64,000 nt of DNA from Bacteroidia bacterium (GTDB lineage Bacteria > Bacteroidota > Bacteroidia > NS11-12g > UBA955): positions 2,196-66,195 of the forward strand of contig JBIPNH010000003.1 of assembly GCA_044373665.1 (NCBI GenBank), given 5' to 3'. How positions within the stretch are numbered: the first letter of the stretch is position 1; each line of letters begins with the position of its first letter. The notes below the pieces were generated by a model. It saw nothing but the letters and a program-made list of their open reading frames with translations. It did no database searches and was not told the origin of the DNA. A program made the translations under genes and the position numbers. Shown in pieces: positions 16,159 through 24,535 of this stretch.

Positions 16159-17205
16159 ATGTTAAAACTTTATTATTTTTTAATTGCCCCACTTGGAATG
16201 TTATTGATGGCTTATGGCTATTTAAAAGTTGCTGCTAAACTTAACCTTTACGACCACCCTGTTGGTAGAAGTTCGCACAACAACAGAACCATTACGGGCT
16301 ACGGCATTTTTGTTTTATTGGGTTTGTTTTTGTACAGCATTATTTATCCATTCACGCTAAGTGCCTATTTTATTATTGGTTTAGTAATGATGGCAACCAT
16401 CAGTTTTATTGATGACATTGTTTTTGTAAAACACTTTATCAGGTTAATTTTTCAACTTTTTGCTCTCATCTTATTAGCCATTGACCTCCCCTTTGATTAC
16501 ATTACAACCGATAAACTACCTTTGATTATTGCCTCTGTTATTTTTGGTATAGGGGTATTAAATGCCTTTAATTTTATGGATGGCATTAATGGTATGTTAG
16601 GCCTGAATTCGTTGGTTATCCTAGTCAGTTTTTGGTGGTTGAATAATCATACTTATGACACTTCCGGTCACGAGATTACATTTATAACAAACGAGTTTAT
16701 TTACACATTAATCATTGGTGTTTCTATCTTTTTGTTTTTCAACTTAAGGCATAAAGCGATAGCGTTTGCAGGAGATGTAGGCAGTATTTCAATTGCATTT
16801 GTTATTTTTTACCTGATGGTTAATTTAATATTTGCCACAGGCAATTATGCTTACCTTCTTTTGTTCGTTGTAATAGGCATTGATGCTGCGCTTACGGTTA
16901 TTTTCAAACTACTTTTAAGAGAAAACATATTTGTACCACACAGAGATTTTTTATTCAAAAAACTAGTCCATGTAGGCAAATACAAGCATGTTAATATTTC
17001 TATTATTTATGCTATGGTTCAAGCTTTTATTTCGATAATTGTTATTGCACTACCCCTTCAAAACAAACTTTCGGCCCAATTGAGCATTCTGTTTATAGTA
17101 GTGGTAGGATTATGTAGCACCTATATAATCATCAGAAATAAATACACCAAAAAAAGGGTGATTAAATCCTTACAAAGAGAAGCAAATATTATAGAAGAAG
17201 ATTAA
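16159..17205 (+). CDS. family 4 glycosyltransferase (MraY/WecA-like polyprenyl-phosphate HexNAc-1-phosphate transferase)
   Basis: About 10 TM helices and the NAFNFMDGINGM motif diagnostic of the MraY/WecA family. Confidence 0.8.
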   Translation: MLKLYYFLIAPLGMLLMAYGYLKVAAKLNLYDHPVGRSSHNNRTITGYGIFVLLGLFLYSIIYPFTLSAYFIIGLVMMATISFIDDIVFVKHFIRLIFQLFALILLAIDLPFDYITTDKLPLIIASVIFGIGVLNAFNFMDGINGMLGLNSLVILVSFWWLNNHTYDTSGHEITFITNEFIYTLIIGVSIFLFFNLRHKAIAFAGDVGSISIAFVIFYLMVNLIFATGNYAYLLLFVVIGIDAALTVIFKLLLRENIFVPHRDFLFKKLVHVGKYKHVNISIIYAMVQAFISIIVIALPLQNKLSAQLSILFIVVVGLCSTYIIIRNKYTKKRVIKSLQREANIIEED

Positions 17206-18077
17206 GCAATTTCAGAGCTTGGCGCTATTTTCTTAACCAAGCCTTGCAATACTTTTCCAGGACCACATTCTTCAAAACGCACTGCCCCATCTGTAACCAT
17301 AGCTTGAACACATTGAGTCCATTTTACAGGAGCCGTTAATTGTTTAAGTAAGTTTGCTTTTATTTGTTCAGGGTTTACTTCAGCTTGAGCTGTCACATTT
17401 TGATAAATAGGACAAGAACCTTGACTGAATTTTGTATTTTCTATAGCAATTGCTAATTTTTCTTCAGCAGGTTTCATTAAGGGTGAGTGAAAAGCACCGC
17501 CTACTTGAAGTACCAAAGCACGTTTAGCCCCTGCTGCTTTTAATTTTTCACAAGCTTCATTCACTGCTTCTATTTCTCCTGATATTACCAATTGTCCTGG
17601 ACAGTTATAATTAGCAGGAACTACAATGCCGCTGGTAATTGAGGCACAAATTTCTTCAACTTTAGCATCCTCCAAACCCAATACAGCAGCCATTGTGCTA
17701 GGTTTCAATTGACAAGCTTCTTGCATTGCCATGGCGCGTTGATATACTAATTTTAAGCCATCTTCAAAAGTTAGGGTTCCATTGGCAACCAAAGCCGAAA
17801 ACTCGCCTAAACTGTGACCTGCCACCATGTCGGGCTGAAATGATTCACCTAAACATTTGGCAGCAATCACTGAATGTAAAAAAATGGCAGGTTGAGTGAT
17901 ATTAGTTTGCTTTAAACCCTCATCCGTACCGTTAAACAATTCATCTGTAATACGGAAACCTAATATCTCGTTTGCTTTTTCAAACAACGCTTTAGCTTCT
18001 GGGAATTGCTCATATAAATCTTTTCCCATTCCTACAAATTGCGCGCCTTGTCCTGGAAATAAAAATGCTTTTTTCAT
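17202..18077 (-). CDS. fabD: malonyl-CoA:ACP transacylase
   Basis: FPGQGAQ, the GHSLGEFSAL active-site serine motif, and GAFHS. Confidence 0.92.
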   Translation of the reverse strand: MKKAFLFPGQGAQFVGMGKDLYEQFPEAKALFEKANEILGFRITDELFNGTDEGLKQTNITQPAIFLHSVIAAKCLGESFQPDMVAGHSLGEFSALVANGTLTFEDGLKLVYQRAMAMQEACQLKPSTMAAVLGLEDAKVEEICASITSGIVVPANYNCPGQLVISGEIEAVNEACEKLKAAGAKRALVLQVGGAFHSPLMKPAEEKLAIAIENTKFSQGSCPIYQNVTAQAEVNPEQIKANLLKQLTAPVKWTQCVQAMVTDGAVRFEECGPGKVLQGLVKKIAPSSEIA

Positions 18078-18479
18078 GCTTCAATTTTAATACTTATTTG
18101 ATAATATTAAAAGGTTTTTATTTTTCAGATTATTGAAAGTAAATCGTTTAGAATCTGCAAGCAATGTCGTTTTATTAACTAATCTATTTCCAAGCAGGCA
18201 CAAGTTGGATGAGCCTGTTTTCTTGGGTAAATGAATCCATTTGATTGATGTTAATGATGATGCCGTTGTAAGTTATCTGTCATTACCAATGAATGAACTC
18301 TCACATTTCGAATGGTTAATTGTTAAAAATCAATTTGGTTGTTTGGAGGCAATGGGTTTAATTTGTAAAACAAAACTGAAAAAACGGGAATATCTAAAAC
18401 ACTAAAAAAGTTCCTCCTATATTACGAAAACGTATGTTTTTGGGAACATTTTGAAGAAAAAAGATCTCATATAAGTAAG

Positions 18480-19172
18480 TTATAGCCAATGCTAAAAAGA
18501 CGACAACAAACAAAATAAATTGACAATGGAAGAAAGACCAAAAATAAAATTAGAACTTACGACAGCCGACAAGATATTTGAAAGTATTGGTTGGTTTTTA
18601 ATAATAGCGATTTGGGGTTTGACAATTACAAACTATTCAAACTTGCCTGACACTATTCCGACACATTATAATGGAGCAGGACAAGCTGATGGGTTTGGCG
18701 GAAAGGCGACTATTTTGACTTTGCCCTTAATTGCAACCATTTTATTCATTGGACTGACAATATTAAATAAGTTTCCACACGTATTCAATTATCCAACCAA
18801 TATTACGCAAGACAACGCTTTTAGGCAATATACCAATGCGACAAGACTTATAAGATATCTTAAACTTATTATCGTTTTTATTTTCGGACTTATTGCGTTC
18901 AAGACAATTCAAAATGCAAACGGAAAAGCAGACGGACTTGGAGTTTGGTTTTTACCAATGACAATGGGACTGATTTTTATTCCGCTGATTTATTTTGTGA
19001 TTAAATCATTCAAGACAAAACAATGACCAAAAGACAAAGCACTGGCTATAACAGCACCTACCCAAAAGGCGGGGTGTCGTGTTCCAAAGACAGTTTTGTG
19101 GTTAATCAAACATTAGTTTTTCAAATCAAGTTTTGTGGTAAAAGTCCCGCCCTTCGGCTAAGCCGCGAAACG
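18480..19172 (+). mobile_element. putative integron-type gene cassette 1 (DUF1648 membrane protein + attC-like site A)
   Basis: Bounded by G|TTATAGCC (18479-18487) and by the G|TT of attC-like A (19172). GTTATAGCC is the exact reverse complement of the 5' core GGCTATAAC of attC-like A. Confidence 0.55.
18526..19026 (+). CDS. DUF1648 domain membrane protein
   Basis: Four TM segments and a PDTIPTHYNGAGQADGFG motif typical of DUF1648/SdpI-like N-termini. ATG at 18526. Confidence 0.65.
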   Translation: MEERPKIKLELTTADKIFESIGWFLIIAIWGLTITNYSNLPDTIPTHYNGAGQADGFGGKATILTLPLIATILFIGLTILNKFPHVFNYPTNITQDNAFRQYTNATRLIRYLKLIIVFIFGLIAFKTIQNANGKADGLGVWFLPMTMGLIFIPLIYFVIKSFKTKQ

Positions 19173-19178
19173 TTAGGC
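19044..19178 (+). repeat. attC-like imperfect palindrome A (135 bp)
   Basis: 5' GGCTATAAC ... AGGCGGGG // CCCGCCC ... AAGCCGCGAAAC-GTTAGGC 3'. The outer cores are RYYYAAC/GTTRRRY-like. It is homologous to element B. ORF 19023..19232 in the track is just its translation. Confidence 0.6.
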
Positions 19179-19203
19179 ACAAGCATAAAAAGACACAGAA
19201 CAA

Positions 19204-19767
19204 TTGGAAACTTTAAGACTATATTTCAATAAATTTATAAAACTGAATGACCCAGAATGGGCAGACTTTGAAAAGTATATAATAAAGGCGAAAATTGGGA
19301 AAAACGAGCAAATACTCAGAAAAGGCGAACATTGCAATTTTATCGCATTTATCCACGAGGGGAGTTTTAGATTTTATTACGACAAGGACGGTGAAGAAAA
19401 AATCACTGCCTTTAATTTTAAAGGTGATTTTGTAAGCAATTACAGAAGCTTTTTAACTGGTAATCCTTCAGACCATTTTATTGAAGCGATGCAAGATGCA
19501 GTTATTTATAAAATAAATTTGCAAGAACTTAATTCTTTATATGATAAACATAAAAATATAGAACGACTTGGCAGACTGATTGCTGAAAATTTATATCTTA
19601 TGGTAGCCAGTCGTCTTGACTCGTTCATGTTTCAAACCCCAGAAGAAAGATATAAAGCTTTGATTGAAAGAAATTCAAGATTACTACAAGAAGTACCACA
19701 GTATATGATTGCTTCCTATCTCGGTGTTAAACCGGAAACATTAAGTCGTATTAGAGGACGCAAATAA
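19204..19767 (+). CDS. Crp/Fnr family transcriptional regulator (cNMP-binding domain + C-terminal HTH)
   Basis: 187 aa with a beta-roll region (GEHCNFIAFIHEGSFRFYY) and a C-terminal HTH (IASYLGVKPETLSRIRG). TTG start. Confidence 0.8.
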   Translation: METLRLYFNKFIKLNDPEWADFEKYIIKAKIGKNEQILRKGEHCNFIAFIHEGSFRFYYDKDGEEKITAFNFKGDFVSNYRSFLTGNPSDHFIEAMQDAVIYKINLQELNSLYDKHKNIERLGRLIAENLYLMVASRLDSFMFQTPEERYKALIERNSRLLQEVPQYMIASYLGVKPETLSRIRGRK

Positions 19768-19865
19768 TTTTGGCTCTGAAATGATTTATTGACTTTGGTC
19801 AACGACTTTTGCTTTGTTGACTATCTACCTTTGTCCTATTAATCAACATTTAAAATTTTAAGACA

Positions 19866-20444
19866 ATGAAATCGATATTCATTTATGTTGCTTTGGCAGC
19901 AATCACAGTAGTAAACGCATTTGGACAAGAGCAAAACATTCCATCAAGAAAATGGGGGGCAGAAGTAAATTTACTTTGGCCAATCTTTCCCGGAAACATC
20001 TACAAGGGACAAGTTACTTACGAAACTTGGCGAAAAAATGATTTAGCAGGTGACGTATTTGTTGGCTTTCACATAAGACCATCTGAGTTTAGGGAAGAAG
20101 AAGGCGATTTCGCCAATTATGCGCTAACATTCGGGTACAGACAATTCGTTTGGAAAGGGCTTCATTTTGAACTTTACAATGCATTCGGACCAGGCTTTAA
20201 CAAAAACAATCCTGTTGATGGAAAAGACTATACAAGCTGGGACTATGAAGTGGGATTATTAGCAGGGTATCGCTGGGAATTTTTGAAAAAAGAGAAAAGG
20301 GAAAAGATGAAAATCAGCCCCTATTTAAGCACACAACAAGGATTTTATTATGTAGCTTCAAAGAGTAATCCGCATCCAATTATAGGTTCAACTGGTGAAA
20401 GACCGATTTATGTCGGGACTTTAAACTTGGGAATTAGATTTTAA
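19866..20444 (+). CDS. small secreted protein, probable outer-membrane beta-barrel
   Basis: Signal peptide (VVNAFGQ), alternating aromatic/Gly-rich strands, and a C-terminal ...LNLGIRF with a terminal Phe. Confidence 0.5.
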   Translation: MKSIFIYVALAAITVVNAFGQEQNIPSRKWGAEVNLLWPIFPGNIYKGQVTYETWRKNDLAGDVFVGFHIRPSEFREEEGDFANYALTFGYRQFVWKGLHFELYNAFGPGFNKNNPVDGKDYTSWDYEVGLLAGYRWEFLKKEKREKMKISPYLSTQQGFYYVASKSNPHPIIGSTGERPIYVGTLNLGIRF

Positions 20445-20473
20445 ACTCTAATCTGCCCAAATCATAAATGCCA

Positions 20474-20609
20474 GTGCCTAACAGCGGTTTTGCCTCAGGC
20501 GGGGTTTCGTACTCCGTCTGACGCATTTTGCTATATTTGAACTTTATTGCTTCGTATCAAGTTTGGTGGTTTAATTCCCGCCCGAACGCAAAGCCGCGGA
20601 ACGTTACAA
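20474..20609 (+). repeat. attC-like imperfect palindrome B (136 bp)
   Basis: 5' GTGCCTAACAGCGGTTTTGC..AGGCGGGG // CCCGCCCGAACGCAAAGCCGCGGAAC-GTTACAA 3'. The arms pair extensively (TAAC/GTTA, GCGG.TTTGC, GGCGGG). ORF 20528..20758 is a read-through of it. Confidence 0.6.
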
Positions 20610-20815
20610 GCAAGGCTATGACCAACGAAATGAAATGGACATATCGGTTGACAAGAGACAGAAGCCCCCCGCAAAGGCAAGAGAGAGGCTACGCCTCACA
20701 CTTGCCTTTTTTGCAGCCCGCAATTGTGCCAACAGGCACAATTGTAGCACCTAACTGACTGTAGAAAGGCTATTTTAATAGTTAGGACAAAAAACAAAAT
20801 TAATAATAAACAAAA

Positions 20816-21355
20816 ATGAAATCTTTAAATAAAATAAGTATATTAGCGGTTGTATTTGCTGCTATGACAATTAGTGTTAACGCCCAAACCACAGGGAATT
20901 GGGATTTGAATTCAGGGAATGCCCAAACTACATCTACCTTTGCAGTAGGTCTTGGTACAACCACTCCGAATGCAAGGTTTAATTTAGTAAATCCTGTGTT
21001 CTCCGATGGAGAAGGTGGCTTTTTTTCGCATAATCCTTTTCATATACAATTTAGTGGATTAAGCACTATGATGCTCCTTAACCAATTTGGAATGTTAGGA
21101 TTGAAAACAAATAATCCCAACAGTTATTTTCATCTAAATGTAAATTCACTATCTCACAACATGTTTGAACTCACCAAACAAAACGGTACAGCGACAAGCA
21201 GACTTTATTTTGACTCACGATTTTATACAACTTCACACTTGTCTTTAAATCCAATTTGTGCCGTTGTTGGTGTTATCACCAACGACATGCATTTCATGAA
21301 ACTTGATTGTTGGTCTCGGCTAAGCCGAGACCAACAATGGCTTCAAATTTTTTAA
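20816..21355 (+). CDS. secreted hypothetical protein, probably a truncated remnant (N-terminus resembles tail-fibre/T9SS-cargo-type proteins)
   Basis: Signal peptide MKSLNKISILAVVFAAMTISVNAQ and a VGLGTTTPNARFNL motif. The last ~34 codons are encoded by the hairpin-rich duplicated segment that starts at 21255, which suggests the native 3' end is missing. Confidence 0.4.
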   Translation: MKSLNKISILAVVFAAMTISVNAQTTGNWDLNSGNAQTTSTFAVGLGTTTPNARFNLVNPVFSDGEGGFFSHNPFHIQFSGLSTMMLLNQFGMLGLKTNNPNSYFHLNVNSLSHNMFELTKQNGTATSRLYFDSRFYTTSHLSLNPICAVVGVITNDMHFMKLDCWSRLSRDQQWLQIF

Positions 21356-21632
21356 AACAGAGCTTTACAACCCCTCCAATTCTTTTTTCTGTTGTTTGGT
21401 CAATCCACTTTTAACCAATTCATAACTGTGGTCAACTAATTCCTTTGTGCCGTTGTTGGTGTTATCACCAACGACATGCATTTCATGAAACTTGATTGTT
21501 GGTCTCGGCTAAGCCGAGACCAACAATGGCTTCAAATTTTTTAAAACAGAGCTTTACAACCCCTCCAATTCTTTTTTCTGTTGTTTGGTCAATCCGCTTT
21601 TAACCAATTCATAACTGTGGTCAACTAATTCT
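21255..21632. repeat. 189-bp tandem duplication (2 copies: 21255-21443 and 21444-21632)
   Basis: By-eye alignment gives 187/189 identity (differences at 21407/21596 and 21443/21632). Each copy holds a 7-bp hairpin (gttggtg..caccaac), a 14-bp perfect hairpin (ttgttggtctcggc taa gccgagaccaacaa) and the last ~26 codons plus the stop of the yjbR-like gene. Confidence 0.9.
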
Positions 21633-21904
21633 TTTAATAATTGCTCGGACAAACCTTCAACATAAACCGTATTCCAATGGGTTTTATTCATGTGGTATCC
21701 TGGTTGTATTTGCGAATATTCCTCCCTTAATTCAATGGCTTTTTCGGGATTGCATTTTAAATTGATGCTTTGAAAATCGTTTAAACTACACAATGCAAAT
21801 ACTTTTCCCATCACTTTGAAGACTAATGTATCAGGACCAAAAGGACATTCCTCGCTCACACCAGGTTTGGAAATGCAATAGTTTCTAAATTGCTCAATGT
21901 CCAT
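21554..21904 (-). CDS. MmcQ/YjbR family DNA-binding protein
   Basis: 116 aa; CISKPGVSEECPFGPDTLVFKVMGKVFA is typical of the YjbR fold family. Confidence 0.75.
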   Translation of the reverse strand: MDIEQFRNYCISKPGVSEECPFGPDTLVFKVMGKVFALCSLNDFQSINLKCNPEKAIELREEYSQIQPGYHMNKTHWNTVYVEGLSEQLLKELVDHSYELVKSGLTKQQKKELEGL

Positions 21905-21912
21905 TGTTGATT

Positions 21913-23604
21913 CTAAAAAGCAATGGCCTCTTCAACACGTTGAAGTATGGCATCTATTTGAGTATGATTTTCTTTCAACAATTGTTTTGCTTCTTCGGCA
22001 AATGCAGCAGCTTGTTGTTTGTTAGACAAACCCTTAGCATTAATCATGACATTAAAATAAGCCCCTCTTACCGCAGTTTTGATACACAATAAGCCTACAC
22101 CAGCATCGGTTATACTGTTCTGATTGCCTTGTTCCACCATTTGACGAAGAATGTCAACACATTGAAACGCAACCTTCATGGTTTTTAATGGCACTTCAGT
22201 TGCATAAATTGACGCATTTTCAATTGCAGCTTTTCGACTATTTTTTTCCTCTTCAGTTGATTTTGGCAATTGCATCGCAGACATTATAGCATTAAACGCC
22301 TGAGTATCTTCATCAATAAAAGTCAATAATTGCTGTTTCAATGTTTGCGCTTTTTCTGCCCAAGCAGAGAATTCAGCGGTACGATGTTCCCAACCTCTTT
22401 TATCCGCACTTAAATTGGCAACCATAGCCCCTAAACTGATGCCTATTGTTCCACACAATGCACTTACAGAGCCGCCTCCAGGAGCAGGACTCTCGCTTGC
22501 AGTTTCGTTAGCAAATTGCTTAATTGTTAAATCGATTAGCGCGGTTTTGTTTTGTTGTTGTAAAACGTATTCAATAATTCGTTCTTGCGGATTGAAAGAA
22601 CTTAATTGGTTGAGCCCCAAAGATTCAACTGCTATGTGAATCAGTTCTTCTTCACTTACCCCAACACTTCTGCCTTGTTTTTCTAAATAATATTTACCAG
22701 CCTCTAAGAGGGGTTGCAATGGCACTAATCCTACCAATTCACTTCCAGTAACCCGTACACCACGTTCATTGGCTTTGGCACAAACCTCATCAAAAGCTTT
22801 GTGTACCGACGTAATTTTGTAATTGGTTAAATTCATGCTTATTTGCGCTAACCCATACTCTTCGATATACCAACCAATTGCTTTTACTGATTTTAACGTC
22901 CCCGGAATTCTTACATCTTCTCCATTTTCATCTTTCACCACTTTCCCTGAATAAGGATTTCCTTCTCTCTTTACCCTTCCTGCTTCTCTTACATCAAAAG
23001 CAATTCTGTTGGCAATACGGGTCGACTTTGTATTCAAATTCACATTGTAAGCTATTAAAAAATCGCGAGCACCAATAACAGTTGCGCCATGTTTAAGTGG
23101 TAATTCACTAGGACCAAAATCAGGTTTCCATTCAGGAAGTTTTATTTTTTCGGCAAATCCTTCATATTCACCTCCACGAATCACTGACAAGTTGGAACGG
23201 TTTTTATTCGGTTGAGCCTCTTCGTACAGATAAACAGGAATTTGAAGTTCTTTACCCACTTTTTCAGCTAAAACAATGGCCCATTTGGCACATTCTTCCA
23301 TGCTAATGCCCGAAACAGGCACAAAAGGACAAACATCGGTTGCACCCATGCGAGGGTGTTCTCCTTTGTGTGTTCTCATGTCAATTAATTCAGCAGCTTT
23401 TTGAATTCCTAAAAATGCGGCTTCTACCACTTCGGCAGGAGTGCCTGCAAATGTAACAACGGTTCTGTTTGTGGCTTTACCCATGTCAACATGTAATAAT
23501 TTTACACCTTCTACACTTTCTATGGCTTGGGTAATTTGATTGATAATTTCAGGATTTTGCCCTTCACTAAAATTAGGCACACATTCTATGATTTGTTTCG
23601 ACAT
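21913..23604 (-). CDS. ftcD: bifunctional glutamate formimidoyltransferase / formimidoyltetrahydrofolate cyclodeaminase
   Basis: N-terminal ECVPNFSEGQN transferase signature. The C-terminal ~210 aa carry the cyclodeaminase motif SPAPGGGSVSALCG. Confidence 0.88.
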   Translation of the reverse strand: MSKQIIECVPNFSEGQNPEIINQITQAIESVEGVKLLHVDMGKATNRTVVTFAGTPAEVVEAAFLGIQKAAELIDMRTHKGEHPRMGATDVCPFVPVSGISMEECAKWAIVLAEKVGKELQIPVYLYEEAQPNKNRSNLSVIRGGEYEGFAEKIKLPEWKPDFGPSELPLKHGATVIGARDFLIAYNVNLNTKSTRIANRIAFDVREAGRVKREGNPYSGKVVKDENGEDVRIPGTLKSVKAIGWYIEEYGLAQISMNLTNYKITSVHKAFDEVCAKANERGVRVTGSELVGLVPLQPLLEAGKYYLEKQGRSVGVSEEELIHIAVESLGLNQLSSFNPQERIIEYVLQQQNKTALIDLTIKQFANETASESPAPGGGSVSALCGTIGISLGAMVANLSADKRGWEHRTAEFSAWAEKAQTLKQQLLTFIDEDTQAFNAIMSAMQLPKSTEEEKNSRKAAIENASIYATEVPLKTMKVAFQCVDILRQMVEQGNQNSITDAGVGLLCIKTAVRGAYFNVMINAKGLSNKQQAAAFAEEAKQLLKENHTQIDAILQRVEEAIAF

Positions 23605-24443: not shown

Positions 24444-24506
24444 TAAATGAGGGAGTTATCTCCTTAAAATAAAAATTATATTATATTTAGTAAATCATAT
24501 TCAATT

Positions 24507-24535
24507 AAAAAGGGAACCAAATTGGTTCCCTTTTT
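24507..24535. terminator. bidirectional rho-independent terminator
   Basis: aaaa-AGGGAACCaaattGGTTCCCT-tttt, between convergent genes. Confidence 0.8.

What the first reader, a model, noticed from the sequence alone, without database searches (positions are those of the whole stretch)
18479..20609. Integron-type gene cassettes (two attC-like sites with a cross-boundary complementarity signature) and no integrase in the window
Seen in sequence: two homologous imperfect palindromes lie at 19044-19178 and 20474-20609. They sit 18 bp and 30 bp after the stops of + strand genes. Each begins with an RYYYAAC-like core (GGCTATAAC; GTGCCTAAC) and ends with ...AAGCCGCG.AAC-GTT (GTTAGGC; GTTACAA). GC-rich inner arms (AGGCGGGG / CCCGCC) pair across a ~70-bp variable centre. 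This is the R''-L''...L'-R' layout of integron attC sites. The decisive detail concerns what each 5' core pairs with. Against the GTT core at its own 3' end it is only 4-bp complementary (TAAC/GTTA). Against the GTT core at the START of its own cassette it is 9/9 complementary. GGCTATAAC (19044-19052) matches GTTATAGCC (18479-18487), and GTGCCTAAC (20474-20482) matches GTTAGGCAC (19172-19180). Established knowledge: IntI crossover occurs between G and TT of R'. The first six bases of a linear cassette therefore belong to the attC at its far end, which gives exactly this circular permutation. Inference: 18480-19172 (DUF1648 membrane protein) and 19173-20603 (Crp/Fnr regulator plus small OM beta-barrel) are two captured cassettes. 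The genes are tightly packed, with 46 and 31 bp of 5' spacer. No intI or recognisable attI is present; the left neighbour is fabD after ~400 bp of non-coding DNA. The array is therefore CALIN-like, or the integrase lies elsewhere or has been lost. To my knowledge, integron cassettes are poorly characterised in Bacteroidota.
Basis: partly seen in the sequence, partly recalled or inferred. Interest (0 to 1): 0.8.

Follow-up and report, generated by a model that had tools for sequence, protein, structure and literature searches.

The report
Integron-like gene cassettes in Bacteroidota chromosome
Two small gene units between fabD and ftcD are mobile gene cassettes, each ending in a 135-base hairpin recombination site. 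They belong to a cassette-capture system found across Bacteroidota that works like an integron but uses an integrase lacking the feature that defines classical integron integrases.

Summary

- **The two elements.** Those at 19044-19178 and 20474-20609 are homologous imperfect palindromes. Each 5' core is complementary to the GTT core at the start of its own cassette (14/15 and 13/15 nt), and the 64-kb window holds no other partner.
- **A wider family.** They belong to a ~140-nt family found in 23 genomes, all but one Bacteroidota. It often forms same-strand arrays with one ORF per unit. Stem covariation is strong: 20 of 23 pairs show changes on both sides.
- **A close relative.** With ~91% identical flanks, it has different genes at the same fabD-YjbR site, and identity breaks right after GTTA(T).
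- **Mobility.** Cassette 2 (Crp-like regulator plus 192-aa protein) occurs in at least six other genomic contexts.
- **The recombinase.** In other Bacteroidota the same elements lie directly downstream of a ~380-aa tyrosine recombinase. It is closest to IntI and XerA but lacks the IntI-specific insertion. It points towards the cassettes and is paired with a conserved zinc-finger-like gene. The attI crossover also falls at GTT.
- **Departures from the canon.** The unpaired bases of the hairpin lie on the opposite arm to those of canonical attC.
- **Limits.** The window has no recombinase, and IntegronFinder could not be run.

Verdict: a new variant of a known kind.

The parts
17202..18077 (-). 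fabD, the conserved left-flank gene
   Evidence: Pfam Acyl_transf_1. About 91% nt identity to relative L126 up to 18129.
18078..18478 (.). Non-coding leader between fabD and the insertion point. Partly conserved in the relative, with no attI-like inverted repeat.
   Evidence: 18299-18478 aligns with L126 at ~90%. It does not resemble the attI next to the recombinases.
18479..18493 (+). Lone GTT core, the left junction of the array (G|TTATAGCCAATGCT). It is the recombination point shared with the relative.
   Evidence: 14/15 complementary to 19038-19052. Identity with L126 ends after GTTAT.
18480..19172 (+). Cassette 1: the DUF1648 membrane-protein gene (18526-19026) plus element el1
19044..19178 (+). 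el1, an attC-like hairpin site. It is a hybrid: the 5' arm is of the GCACCTACCC type and the 3' outer arm of the AAGCCGCGAAAC type.
   Evidence: Model R1 97 bits. Near-copies with matching arms occur in L014 2839-2982 and L110 15405-15548; the predicted fold of el1 lacks the outer stem.
19173..20603 (+). Cassette 2: a Crp/cNMP-binding regulator gene (19204-19767), a 192-aa putative outer-membrane protein gene (19866-20444), and element el2
   Evidence: DNA homology to L117, L116, L122 and L123 starts at 19172/19173 and ends at 20465-20482.
20474..20609 (+). el2, an intact attC-like hairpin site of the commonest type
   Evidence: Model R1 131.7 bits. The long-range stem forms in the bottom-strand fold and in the top-strand fold.
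20604..21254 (+). Third variable unit: a 212-nt spacer with small hairpins, plus most of a 179-aa ORF (20816-21355). It has no attC of its own and may be a truncated cassette.
   Evidence: Absent from relative L126. No partner exists for GTTACAAGC. No Pfam hit above the curated cut-off; only a sub-threshold match to PF20452.
21255..21632 (.). 189-nt tandem duplication (21255-21443 and 21444-21632). Each copy starts with a ~93-nt hairpin repeat. The conserved right flank resumes at 21347 and 21536.
   Evidence: (D2, I7). The duplication is absent from same-species contigs L001 and L002.
21554..23604 (-). YjbR and ftcD, the conserved right-flank genes
   Evidence: Pfam. About 91% nt identity to L126.

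Best explanation
The interval from 18479 to about 21254 is a small chromosomal array of integron-like gene cassettes with no recombinase gene nearby.

Each cassette is a gene or gene pair followed by a ~135-nt imperfect palindrome. That palindrome can fold as a single strand into a long bulged hairpin, an attC-like site. A tyrosine recombinase cuts and rejoins at the G|TT of the 3' core. As a result, the first bases of each linear cassette are the complement of the 5' core of its own hairpin.

The cassettes were inserted at a secondary GTT site next to fabD. In this lineage that site behaves as a hot spot whose content turns over.

The enzyme is most likely supplied in trans by a Bacteroidota-specific recombinase of ~380 aa. 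It is related to IntI and XerA but lacks the IntI insertion that reads extrahelical bases. It has an extra N-terminal domain and a conserved zinc-finger-like partner gene.

Shown: the site anatomy, the family, covariation, the junctions, turnover at this locus, mobility of cassette 2, and physical linkage of the family to that recombinase elsewhere.

Inferred: single-strand folding in vivo, which strand is used, and that this recombinase (rather than a canonical IntI) acts on the window's cassettes.
For: - **Boundary signature.** It is present in the window and repeated in many loci: 12/13 matches in many cases against controls that mostly reach 9-10/13 and rarely 11/13.
- **Family.** A 22-base pattern from the 3' arm hits 23 genome loci, all but one (a Methanoperedens MAG) from Bacteroidota. 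There are arrays of up to 8 same-strand copies, each a few nt after an ORF stop.
- **Orientation.** Sense-strand model scores of 37-145 bits compare with 35 bits or less for antisense.
- **Covariation.** 20 of 23 pairs change on both sides. There are 244 compensatory cells against 83.5 +/- 6.7 in shuffles. 83% of cells pair, against 31-44% when the partner is slid. Independent single-sequence folds give the same architecture in 59 of 60 elements.
- **Crossover at GTT.** L006 and L026 are 96% identical through the genes and the hairpin, then diverge after GTTA. The same recombinase with the same upstream flank has different cassettes in L109 and L110, diverging right after GTT; the same holds for L113 and L114.
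- **This locus.** Relative L126 has ~91% identical flanks and a different ~3-kb content. The break falls after AAGTAAGTTAT, and its first cassette start GTTATGCGG is 9/9 complementary to the 5' core of its own attC.
- **Mobility of cassette 2.** The module sits in at least six other neighbourhoods at 67-94% amino-acid identity, with homology ending at the cassette ends.
- **Recombinase linkage.** A recombinase lies upstream and in the same orientation in L022/L107, L010, L014, L108-L110, L113 and L114; model R1 confirms elements downstream in all but L113 and L114. Its catalytic residues are invariant. Its best fold matches are VchIntIA and XerA.
Against: - No recombinase and no partner gene lie in the 64-kb window. 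The rest of the genome could not be examined.
- The linked recombinases score below the curated cut-off for integron integrase (TIGR02249: 204.7 against 265). They lack the alpha-I2 / beta-4,5 region that canonical IntI uses to read attC.
- The extra unpaired bases lie on the 3' arm of the top strand (about 5 nt against 1 nt). This is the opposite of canonical attC (PMC3053210).
- Fold energies of el1 and el2 are no better than those of shuffled sequence.
- el1 has a broken outer stem.
- In L117 and L122, cassette 2 keeps its end sequences but has no recognisable hairpin after TAA(C). The canonical model does not predict this.
- IntegronFinder's attC model was not available.
Confidence: 0.8

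Rival explanations
1. It is an ordinary CALIN of a canonical integron. The cassettes are moved by a classical IntI (with the alpha-I2 insertion) encoded elsewhere in the genome or in donor cells. The Xer-like recombinase next to other arrays is incidental or plays a different role.
For: - The core sequences are canonical (RYYYAAC / GTTRRRY, crossover at G|TT).
- CALINs are common and half of them occur in genomes without IntI (PMC4889954).
- The blaVEB-1 cassette of class 1 integrons has a similar 133-nt attC. A site of this kind can therefore sit in an IntI1 integron.
Against: - In 8 independent loci the recombinase immediately upstream of the arrays is the insertion-less type. No canonical IntI was seen in any locus.
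- Cassette content differs right at the GTT downstream of that recombinase.
- The hairpins lack the bulged bases on the '' arm that IntI reads.
- IntegronFinder surveys report almost no complete integrons in Bacteroidetes (PMC9024848).
Confidence: 0.12
2. The 135-nt hairpins are small mobile elements of their own (MITE-like). They insert at TAAC/GTTA-type targets next to genes, rather than being an integral part of a gene cassette.
For: - The Crp + 192-aa module occurs with identical ends but without a recognisable hairpin in L117 and L122. Homology to the window stops exactly at TAA(C).
- Near-identical hairpin bodies follow unrelated genes: el1 and L014 2839-2982, and several within L007 and L009.
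- el1 is a hybrid of two hairpin types.
Against: - L006 and L026 share genes and hairpin as one block that ends at GTTA.
- Each hairpin's 5' flank matches the start of its own cassette, not a fixed target.
- L123 shows a decayed hairpin after the same module, so loss by decay is documented.
- Homogenised attC bodies within one host lineage are usual for chromosomal integrons (established knowledge, for example Vibrio VCRs).
Confidence: 0.05
3. The elements are structural repeats such as terminators or REP-like sites, with no role in recombination, and the flank complementarity is coincidental.
For: - They lie just after stop codons.
- Fold energies are unexceptional.
Against: - The chance expectation for the flank matches is 0.05-0.10 per window, and they recur in many loci.
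- Content at the same junction varies between relatives and behind the same recombinase.
- The long-range stem shows covariation.
Confidence: 0.02

Closest known systems
Integron gene cassettes and attC sites, in the form of a CALIN (cluster of attC sites lacking an integron integrase)
   Same: - One promoter-poor ORF or operon is followed by an imperfect palindrome with RYYYAAC...GTTRRRY cores.
- The crossover is at G|TT, so the cassette start is complementary to the 5' core of its own attC.
- Arrays are same-strand, and no integrase lies nearby.
- Site length (~135 nt) is within the known attC range.
   Different: - The unpaired spacer is strongly asymmetric: 1 nt on the R''-L'' side against ~5 nt (GGAAC) on the L'-R' side.
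- There are no single-base bulges on the '' arm.
- The family is conserved in sequence across several Bacteroidota orders.
- Where a recombinase is linked, it is not a canonical IntI.
Sedentary chromosomal integrons with homogeneous attC (Vibrio VCR type), and integrons whose integrase points the same way as the cassettes (Treponema denticola type; from my own knowledge)
   Same: - attC sites are long (120-140 nt) and lineage-specific.
- Arrays carry many cassettes of unknown function.
- The integrase gene is oriented towards the array, with attI at its 3' side.
- Content is strain-specific behind an identical integrase (L109 against L110).
   Different: - The integrase lacks the alpha-I2 / beta-4,5 insertion: 24 aa stand in place of 67 aa of VchIntIA.
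- It carries an extra ~100-aa N-terminal extension (folded domain at residues 1-76).
- It is always paired with a divergent ~120-aa CxxC...CxxxC protein.
- It scores below the TIGR02249 cut-off and about equally well against XerA.
Insertion of integron cassettes at secondary genomic GTT sites ('attG'; bioRxiv 10.1101/2022.09.11.507474, abstract shown)
   Same: The window array, and those in L019 and L023, start at a lone GTT in ordinary intergenic DNA with no attI-like inverted repeat. Housekeeping genes lie on both sides.
   Different: Here the same secondary site holds different cassettes in two close relatives. It therefore behaves as a reusable hot spot rather than a one-off insertion.
Xer-dependent modules (pdif modules, IMEX elements)
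   Same: A Xer-like tyrosine recombinase, and small gene modules bounded by short recombination sites.
   Different: There is no dif-like pair of 11-bp arms. The sites are 135-nt hairpins with covarying stems, the repeats are direct rather than alternately inverted, and a dedicated recombinase with attI sits at the head of the arrays.

Membership tests
Integron cassette / attC site | Cores RYYYAAC (R'') and GTTRRRY (R') at the two ends of an imperfect palindrome located 3' of the cassette ORF | tested here: met
   el2 reads GTGCCTAAC...GTTACAA and el1 reads GGCTATAAC...GTTAGGC. AAC and GTT are invariant or nearly so in 67 elements.
Integron cassette / attC site | Crossover at G|TT of R', so that the start of the linear cassette is complementary to its own R'' | tested here: met
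   The breakpoints fall after GTT/GTTA in L006/L026, L109/L110, L113/L114 and window/L126.
Integron cassette / attC site | Conserved secondary structure, rather than sequence, of the folded single strand (R box, L box, variable centre) | tested here: met
   Covariation in 20 of 23 pairs. The same fold appears in 59 of 60 elements. The count was made on an alignment fitted to the model, which inflates the paired fraction.
Integron cassette / attC site | Two or three extrahelical bases (typically T-N6-G) on the R''-L'' arm of the bottom strand, which direct strand choice (PMC3053210) | tested here: not met
   The extra bases lie on the opposite arm: 5 unpaired nt at the 5' end against 9 at the 3' end in 39-43 of 59 elements, with no bulge on the '' arm.
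Integron cassette / attC site | A hit to the attC covariance model of IntegronFinder or HattCI | not testable with these tools
   The model is not available. Rfam returned no attC-like match at its gathering thresholds, only a tRNA.
Integron (complete) | An IntI tyrosine recombinase carrying the IntI-specific insertion (alpha-I2 helix, beta-4,5) | tested here: not met
   None is in the window. The recombinases linked to the same elements elsewhere skip TIGR02249 positions 182-239 and VchIntIA residues 179-245. They score 204.7 against a cut-off of 265.
Integron (complete) | An attI site next to the integrase, where cassettes are inserted | tested here: met
   This was tested in related loci only. 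An inverted repeat followed by ~9 nt and GTT lies 55-100 nt after the recombinase stop codon. Cassette content diverges right after the GTT. The window has no such site.
CALIN | At least two attC sites within 4 kb and no integron integrase within the neighbourhood | tested here: met
   Two elements lie 1.4 kb apart, and no recombinase is present in 64 kb.
Xer/dif systems | A 28-30-bp dif-like site with two inverted arms and a 6-8-bp centre, acted on by XerC/D-type enzymes | tested here: not met
   No such site lies at the junctions. The sites are 135-nt hairpins. The recombinase scores far below the XerC and XerD cut-offs.

The most novel reading that the evidence does not exclude
Bacteroidota (Flavobacteriales, Chitinophagales, Saprospiraceae and Cytophagales-like groups) may carry a second lineage of integrons.

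Its features would be:
- an integrase that lacks the extrahelical-base-reading insertion, has an extra N-terminal domain, and works with a conserved zinc-finger-like partner;
- attI on the 3' side of the integrase gene;
- ~140-nt attC sites whose asymmetry is the reverse of the classical one.

Because the integrase fails the IntI test, current tools would see its arrays only as CALINs or miss them.

This pool already holds tet(X), an lnu(H)-like gene and subclass A2 beta-lactamase cassettes. It may be the source of the blaVEB-1 cassette of clinical class 1 integrons. The window's two cassettes would be an off-platform deposit of that system.
Probability: 0.4. Interest if true: 0.85.

Novelty: new variant of a known kind. 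Interest (0 to 1): 0.68.

Why it matters
- **Gap in surveys.** The integron surveys I read report almost nothing for Bacteroidetes. IntegronFinder 2.0 found only In0 elements and one complete integron in Salinibacter. The 11 taxon-specific attC models include no Bacteroidota.
- **What the data show.** A conserved, phylum-wide cassette system exists in Bacteroidota, but its integrase would fail the standard IntI criterion.
- **Mechanism.** It raises a testable question: how is a folded attC recognised, and the strand chosen, without the alpha-I2 / beta-4,5 elements and with the unpaired bases on the other arm?
- **Practical side.** The same cassette pool carries tet(X), an lnu(H)-like gene and an ESBL-type beta-lactamase behind one such integrase. 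It may connect to blaVEB-1 in clinical integrons.
- **For the window itself.** The result explains a strain-variable 3-kb island between fabD and ftcD.

Tried and rejected
- **Rfam** at gathering thresholds found only a tRNA and no attC family.
- **RNAalifold** on the MAFFT alignment missed the long stem because stem variants are offset by one column. I replaced it with a hand-drawn structure, a covariance model and pair counts.
- **Single-sequence fold energies** of el1 and el2 are not better than shuffles, because the 70-nt centre is unstructured.
- **Twenty long ORFs near the elements** were scanned with Pfam for integrases. All are housekeeping or cassette genes.
- **Synteny through ftcD.** The metagenome scan for ftcD relatives returned 80 loci at 80% identity or less, with no conserved synteny. 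That route gave no empty-site test. The test succeeded later through the 90% protein cluster of FtcD.
- **Model R1 on the other Crp + 192-aa loci** found no element. With filters off there was only a faint central remnant in L123.
- **Top- versus bottom-strand stability** does not discriminate between the strands.
- **The sigma-70 promoter and terminator scan** was uninformative.
- **A mirror-image model** (crossover at the 5' AAC, genes inverted relative to canonical) was considered because of the reversed bulge asymmetry. I rejected it as the main model: arrays start with a lone GTT core and end with a hairpin (window, L019, L023), and shared blocks end at GTTA.
- **A faint tblastn hit of the recombinase at 18372-18452** (E 1.4) was discarded as noise.
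- **nhmmer** did not detect the blaVEB-1 attC.
Full report
**1. The observation**

The sequence reads as described.

- Elements el1 (19044-19178) and el2 (20474-20609) align over their whole length. Their 3' 67 nt are 76% identical.
- Each starts with ...YTAAC-A and ends with ...AAGCCGCGNAAC-GTTA.
- In the bottom-strand folds, the inner arms GGCGGG/CCCGCC and an outer stem close a long hairpin around a ~70-nt centre.
- The fold energies are not better than those of shuffled sequence, because the centre is unpaired.
- The neighbouring genes are fabD, a DUF1648 protein, a cNMP-binding (Crp-like) regulator, a 192-aa protein with no Pfam hit, a 179-aa ORF, YjbR and ftcD.
- The 15-nt stretch ending in the 5' core of el1 is 14/15 complementary to 18479-18493. 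That of el2 is 13/15 complementary to 19172-19186.
- In each case this is the only other match in the 64-kb window within two mismatches. Chance would give 0.10 and 0.05 matches.
- The sequence after el2 (GTTACAAGCAAGG) has no partner.
- No further copy of the element exists in the window, and no tyrosine recombinase either.

**2. The elements belong to a large family**

A 22-base pattern from the 3' arm was scanned over one genome per prokaryotic species. About 0.4 chance hits were expected (my own estimate). It found 23 loci, all Bacteroidota (Flavobacterium, Aequorivita, Chryseobacterium, Chitinophaga, Saprospiraceae, Roseivirgaceae) except one Methanoperedens MAG.

All share one layout: nnnnTAAC-A-[11-bp stem]-[small internal loop]-[6-9-bp GC stem]-~65 nt-[stems]-GGAAC-GTTAnnnn.

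- An HMM and then a covariance model (R1) found 67 sense-strand copies at E < 1e-6.
- Arrays hold up to 8 copies 0.4-1.4 kb apart, all on the strand of the ORFs. Each copy begins a few nt after an ORF stop.
- Sense scores are 37-145 bits and antisense scores 35 bits or less, so the element is oriented.
- Of the 23 modelled pairs, 20 show changes on both sides.
- There are 244 compensatory cells, against 83.5 +/- 6.7 in shuffles (0 of 500 reach the observed value).
- 83% of cells pair, against 31-44% when partners are slid by 1-3 columns.
- That alignment was fitted to the model. However, unconstrained folds of 60 individual elements give the same architecture in 59 of them.

**3. Where the crossover is**

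- The 13-nt 5' flank of an element matches the reverse complement of the 3' flank of the preceding element at 12/13 in many loci, or matches a lone GTT site upstream. Controls mostly reach 9-10/13 and rarely 11/13.
- L019 (a lone site plus two cassettes) and L023 (a lone site plus one) repeat the window's layout.
- L006 and L026 share a 96% identical block running through the genes and the hairpin, and diverge right after GTTA.

These results place the exchange at the GTT of the 3' core, as in integrons.

**4. A recombinase is linked to the family elsewhere**

It picked up tyrosine recombinase genes next to arrays in L022, L010 and L014, plus a fragment in L006.

- By NCBIfam they score about equally for XerA (214.7, cut-off 220) and integron integrase TIGR02249 (204.7, cut-off 265). 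The TIGR02249 match comes in two pieces that skip profile positions 182-239.
- Against the solved VchIntIA (2a3v), 24 residues stand in place of IntI residues 179-245.
- That region holds K209, Y210, W219, P232, H240 and H241, which contact the extrahelical bases of attC (PMC3053210).
- The family has thousands of Bacteroidota members, annotated as XerD or site-specific integrase.
- Its catalytic R, K, H-x-x-R, H and Y residues are invariant.
- An AlphaFold model (pLDDT 85) shows an additional N-terminal alpha/beta domain and no helix at the alpha-I2 position. Its best PDB matches are VchIntIA and XerA.
- Contigs for four members show one layout. A divergent ~120-aa gene with CxxC...CxxxC comes first, then the recombinase, then 55-100 nt. 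Same-strand small genes follow, interspersed with R1 elements in L107-L110.
- The identical recombinase P0017, with an identical upstream flank, is followed by different cassettes in different samples. L109 and L110 are identical up to ...CAATACAATTGTT and diverge immediately after. L113 and L114 (P0020) behave the same way after ...ACAAACGTTA.

This defines an attI: an inverted repeat, about 9 nt, then GTT, on the 3' side of the recombinase gene. It also shows cassette turnover there.

**5. This locus in a close relative**

FtcD of the window belongs to a 90%-identity cluster of 60 proteins. One member lies on a 1.25-Mb contig (L126).

- L126 keeps the order RNR, PspC, ftcD, YjbR ... fabD, GT4 and AMP ligase, at ~91% nt identity to the window.
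- Between YjbR and fabD it has different genes in the same orientation: 158 aa, a Fic/HTH protein, and 327 aa.
- At the left junction, both read ...CATATAAGTAAGTTAT and then diverge: AGCCAATGC in the window, GCGGCATG in L126.
- The L126 cassette start GTTATGCGG is 9/9 complementary to the core CCGCATAAC of its own, degenerate hairpin (R1, 24.9 bits).
- At the right junction, both resume at TTTTTTAAAACAG. In L126 a truncated hairpin 5' arm abuts this point. In the window a ~93-nt unrelated hairpin repeat does.

The site next to fabD is therefore a shared recombination point with strain-specific content. It does not resemble the attI described above, so I call it a secondary GTT site.

**6. Cassette 2 is mobile**

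- Homologues of the 192-aa protein (52-99% identity, 106 clusters) are confined to Bacteroidota.
- In the eight contexts retrieved in which the upstream DNA is present, the protein is preceded by the 187-191-aa Crp-like gene. Excluding duplicate contigs, the neighbourhoods differ in L116, L117, L119, L120, L122 (94% amino-acid identity) and L123-125.
- DNA homology to the window starts at 19172/19173 in L116, L117 and L123. It ends at 20465-20482, that is, at the cassette ends.
- Crp-like genes also occur inside arrays in L005, L010 and L021.

**7. What does not fit the canonical picture**

(a) The unpaired bases lie on the other arm. One nt (A) follows the 5' AAC, but about 5 nt (GGAAC) precede the 3' GTT, and the '' arm has no single-base bulges. 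This fits the missing extrahelical-base-reading region of the recombinase, but which strand reacts is unknown.

(b) el1 is a hybrid.
- Its body is a near-copy of L014 2839-2982 and L110 15405-15548.
- In those, GCACCTACCC pairs with GGGTAGCTGC. In el1 the last ~14 nt before GTT are of the AAGCCGCGAAAC type, so the outer stem cannot form.
- Cassette 1 may therefore be poorly mobile.

(c) In L117 and L122, cassette 2 keeps its end words but is not followed by a recognisable hairpin. In L122 (94% nt identity), homology stops exactly at GTGCCTAA.
- L123 shows a decayed hairpin, so decay explains part of this.
- A second exchange point at the 5' core cannot be excluded.

**8. Literature**

- IntegronFinder 2.0 reports only In0 elements and one complete integron (Salinibacter ruber) in Bacteroidetes (PMC9024848).
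- The 11 taxon-specific attC models include no Bacteroidota (PMC8352920).
- Eight full-text searches found no description of this Bacteroidota system. The library lacks most subscription journals, so this is not proof of absence.

**9. Verdict**

The window carries two integron-type cassettes, and probably the remnant of a third, at a secondary site without an integrase.

It is not filed as a canonical integron. Two defining features were tested and not met: the IntI insertion in the linked recombinases, and extrahelical bases on the '' arm. It works like an integron and is best described as a new variant of that kind.

Noticed in passing
L110:11335-16376 (same recombinase as L109; ENA ERZ27296327): The array behind recombinase P0017 carries resistance genes as cassettes, each followed by an R1 element. 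They are an Lnu(H)-like nucleotidyltransferase (452 bits, below the cut-off of 540), a bona fide Tet(X) monooxygenase (861.7 bits, cut-off 750) and a subclass A2 class A beta-lactamase (347.7 bits, cut-off 320).
   Followed up: partly
L128:3897-4041 (K. pneumoniae IncC plasmid NZ_CP031802.1, class 1 integron): The 133-nt attC of the blaVEB-1 cassette resembles the Bacteroidota family. It has the flank words AACTACCGCTAAC / GTTAGCGGTAATT, an inner stem ATGGCGG/CCGCCACTG, and a 3-nt against 6-nt spacer asymmetry. The best R1 hit in the locus lies exactly on it but is weak (11.8 bits, E 0.07). It is 70% identical to L010:5507-5651, against 63% or less for shuffles. Unlike the family, it has a bulged G on the '' arm. 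This may point to a Bacteroidota origin of blaVEB-1.
   Followed up: partly
window 21255-21632; L126 15354-15437 and neighbours: A ~93-nt hairpin repeat (TTTGTGCCGTTGTTGG...CCAACAATGGCTTCAAA) sits at the right end of the variable interval. It lies inside a 189-nt tandem duplication that is absent from same-species contigs L001 and L002. Two to three copies of the repeat lie on the fabD side in the relative L126. It forms the 3' end of the 179-aa ORF.
   Followed up: partly
L107:9466-9822, L108:9467-9838, L109:9407-9769, L113:9471-9833: A conserved ~120-aa gene with an N-terminal CxxC...CxxxC motif is always divergently placed ~160-230 nt upstream of the recombinase. It has only faint zinc-finger Pfam hits. 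Classical integrons have no such partner.
   Followed up: partly
window 19044-19178 (el1): el1 is a chimera of two hairpin subtypes, with the switch ~14 nt before the GTT core. L007 4651-4794 shows the same kind of mismatch. A crossover at G|TT does not explain this.
   Followed up: partly
L117:6600-6680, L122:770-1020, L116:6590-6779: Copies of the Crp + 192-aa module keep the cassette end words, but no recognisable 135-nt hairpin follows. In L122 the homology to the window ends exactly at GTGCCTAA. L116 and L122 continue with ...ATCTACCC..., which resembles an el1-type 5' arm.
   Followed up: partly
L011:2732-2875 (Candidatus Methanoperedens MAG, JBGPUU010000017.1): One full-length element (R1, 82 bits) lies on a contig assigned to an archaeal MAG. 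Either the contig was mis-binned or a cassette crossed domains.
   Followed up: no
L126:7646-9127 versus window 24501-24531: The relative has an extra 493-aa gene with no Pfam hit between the ribonucleotide reductase gene and the LiaF-like gene. The window has only ~30 nt there, so this is a second indel between the two relatives.
   Followed up: no
window 20660-20745: The spacer after el2 holds two short GC-rich hairpins: AAAGGCAAGAGAGAGGC/GCCTCACACTTGCCTTT, and GTGCC-AACA-GGCAC inside CAATTGTGCC...GGCACAATTG. Their role is unknown and they do not match the element family.
   Followed up: no
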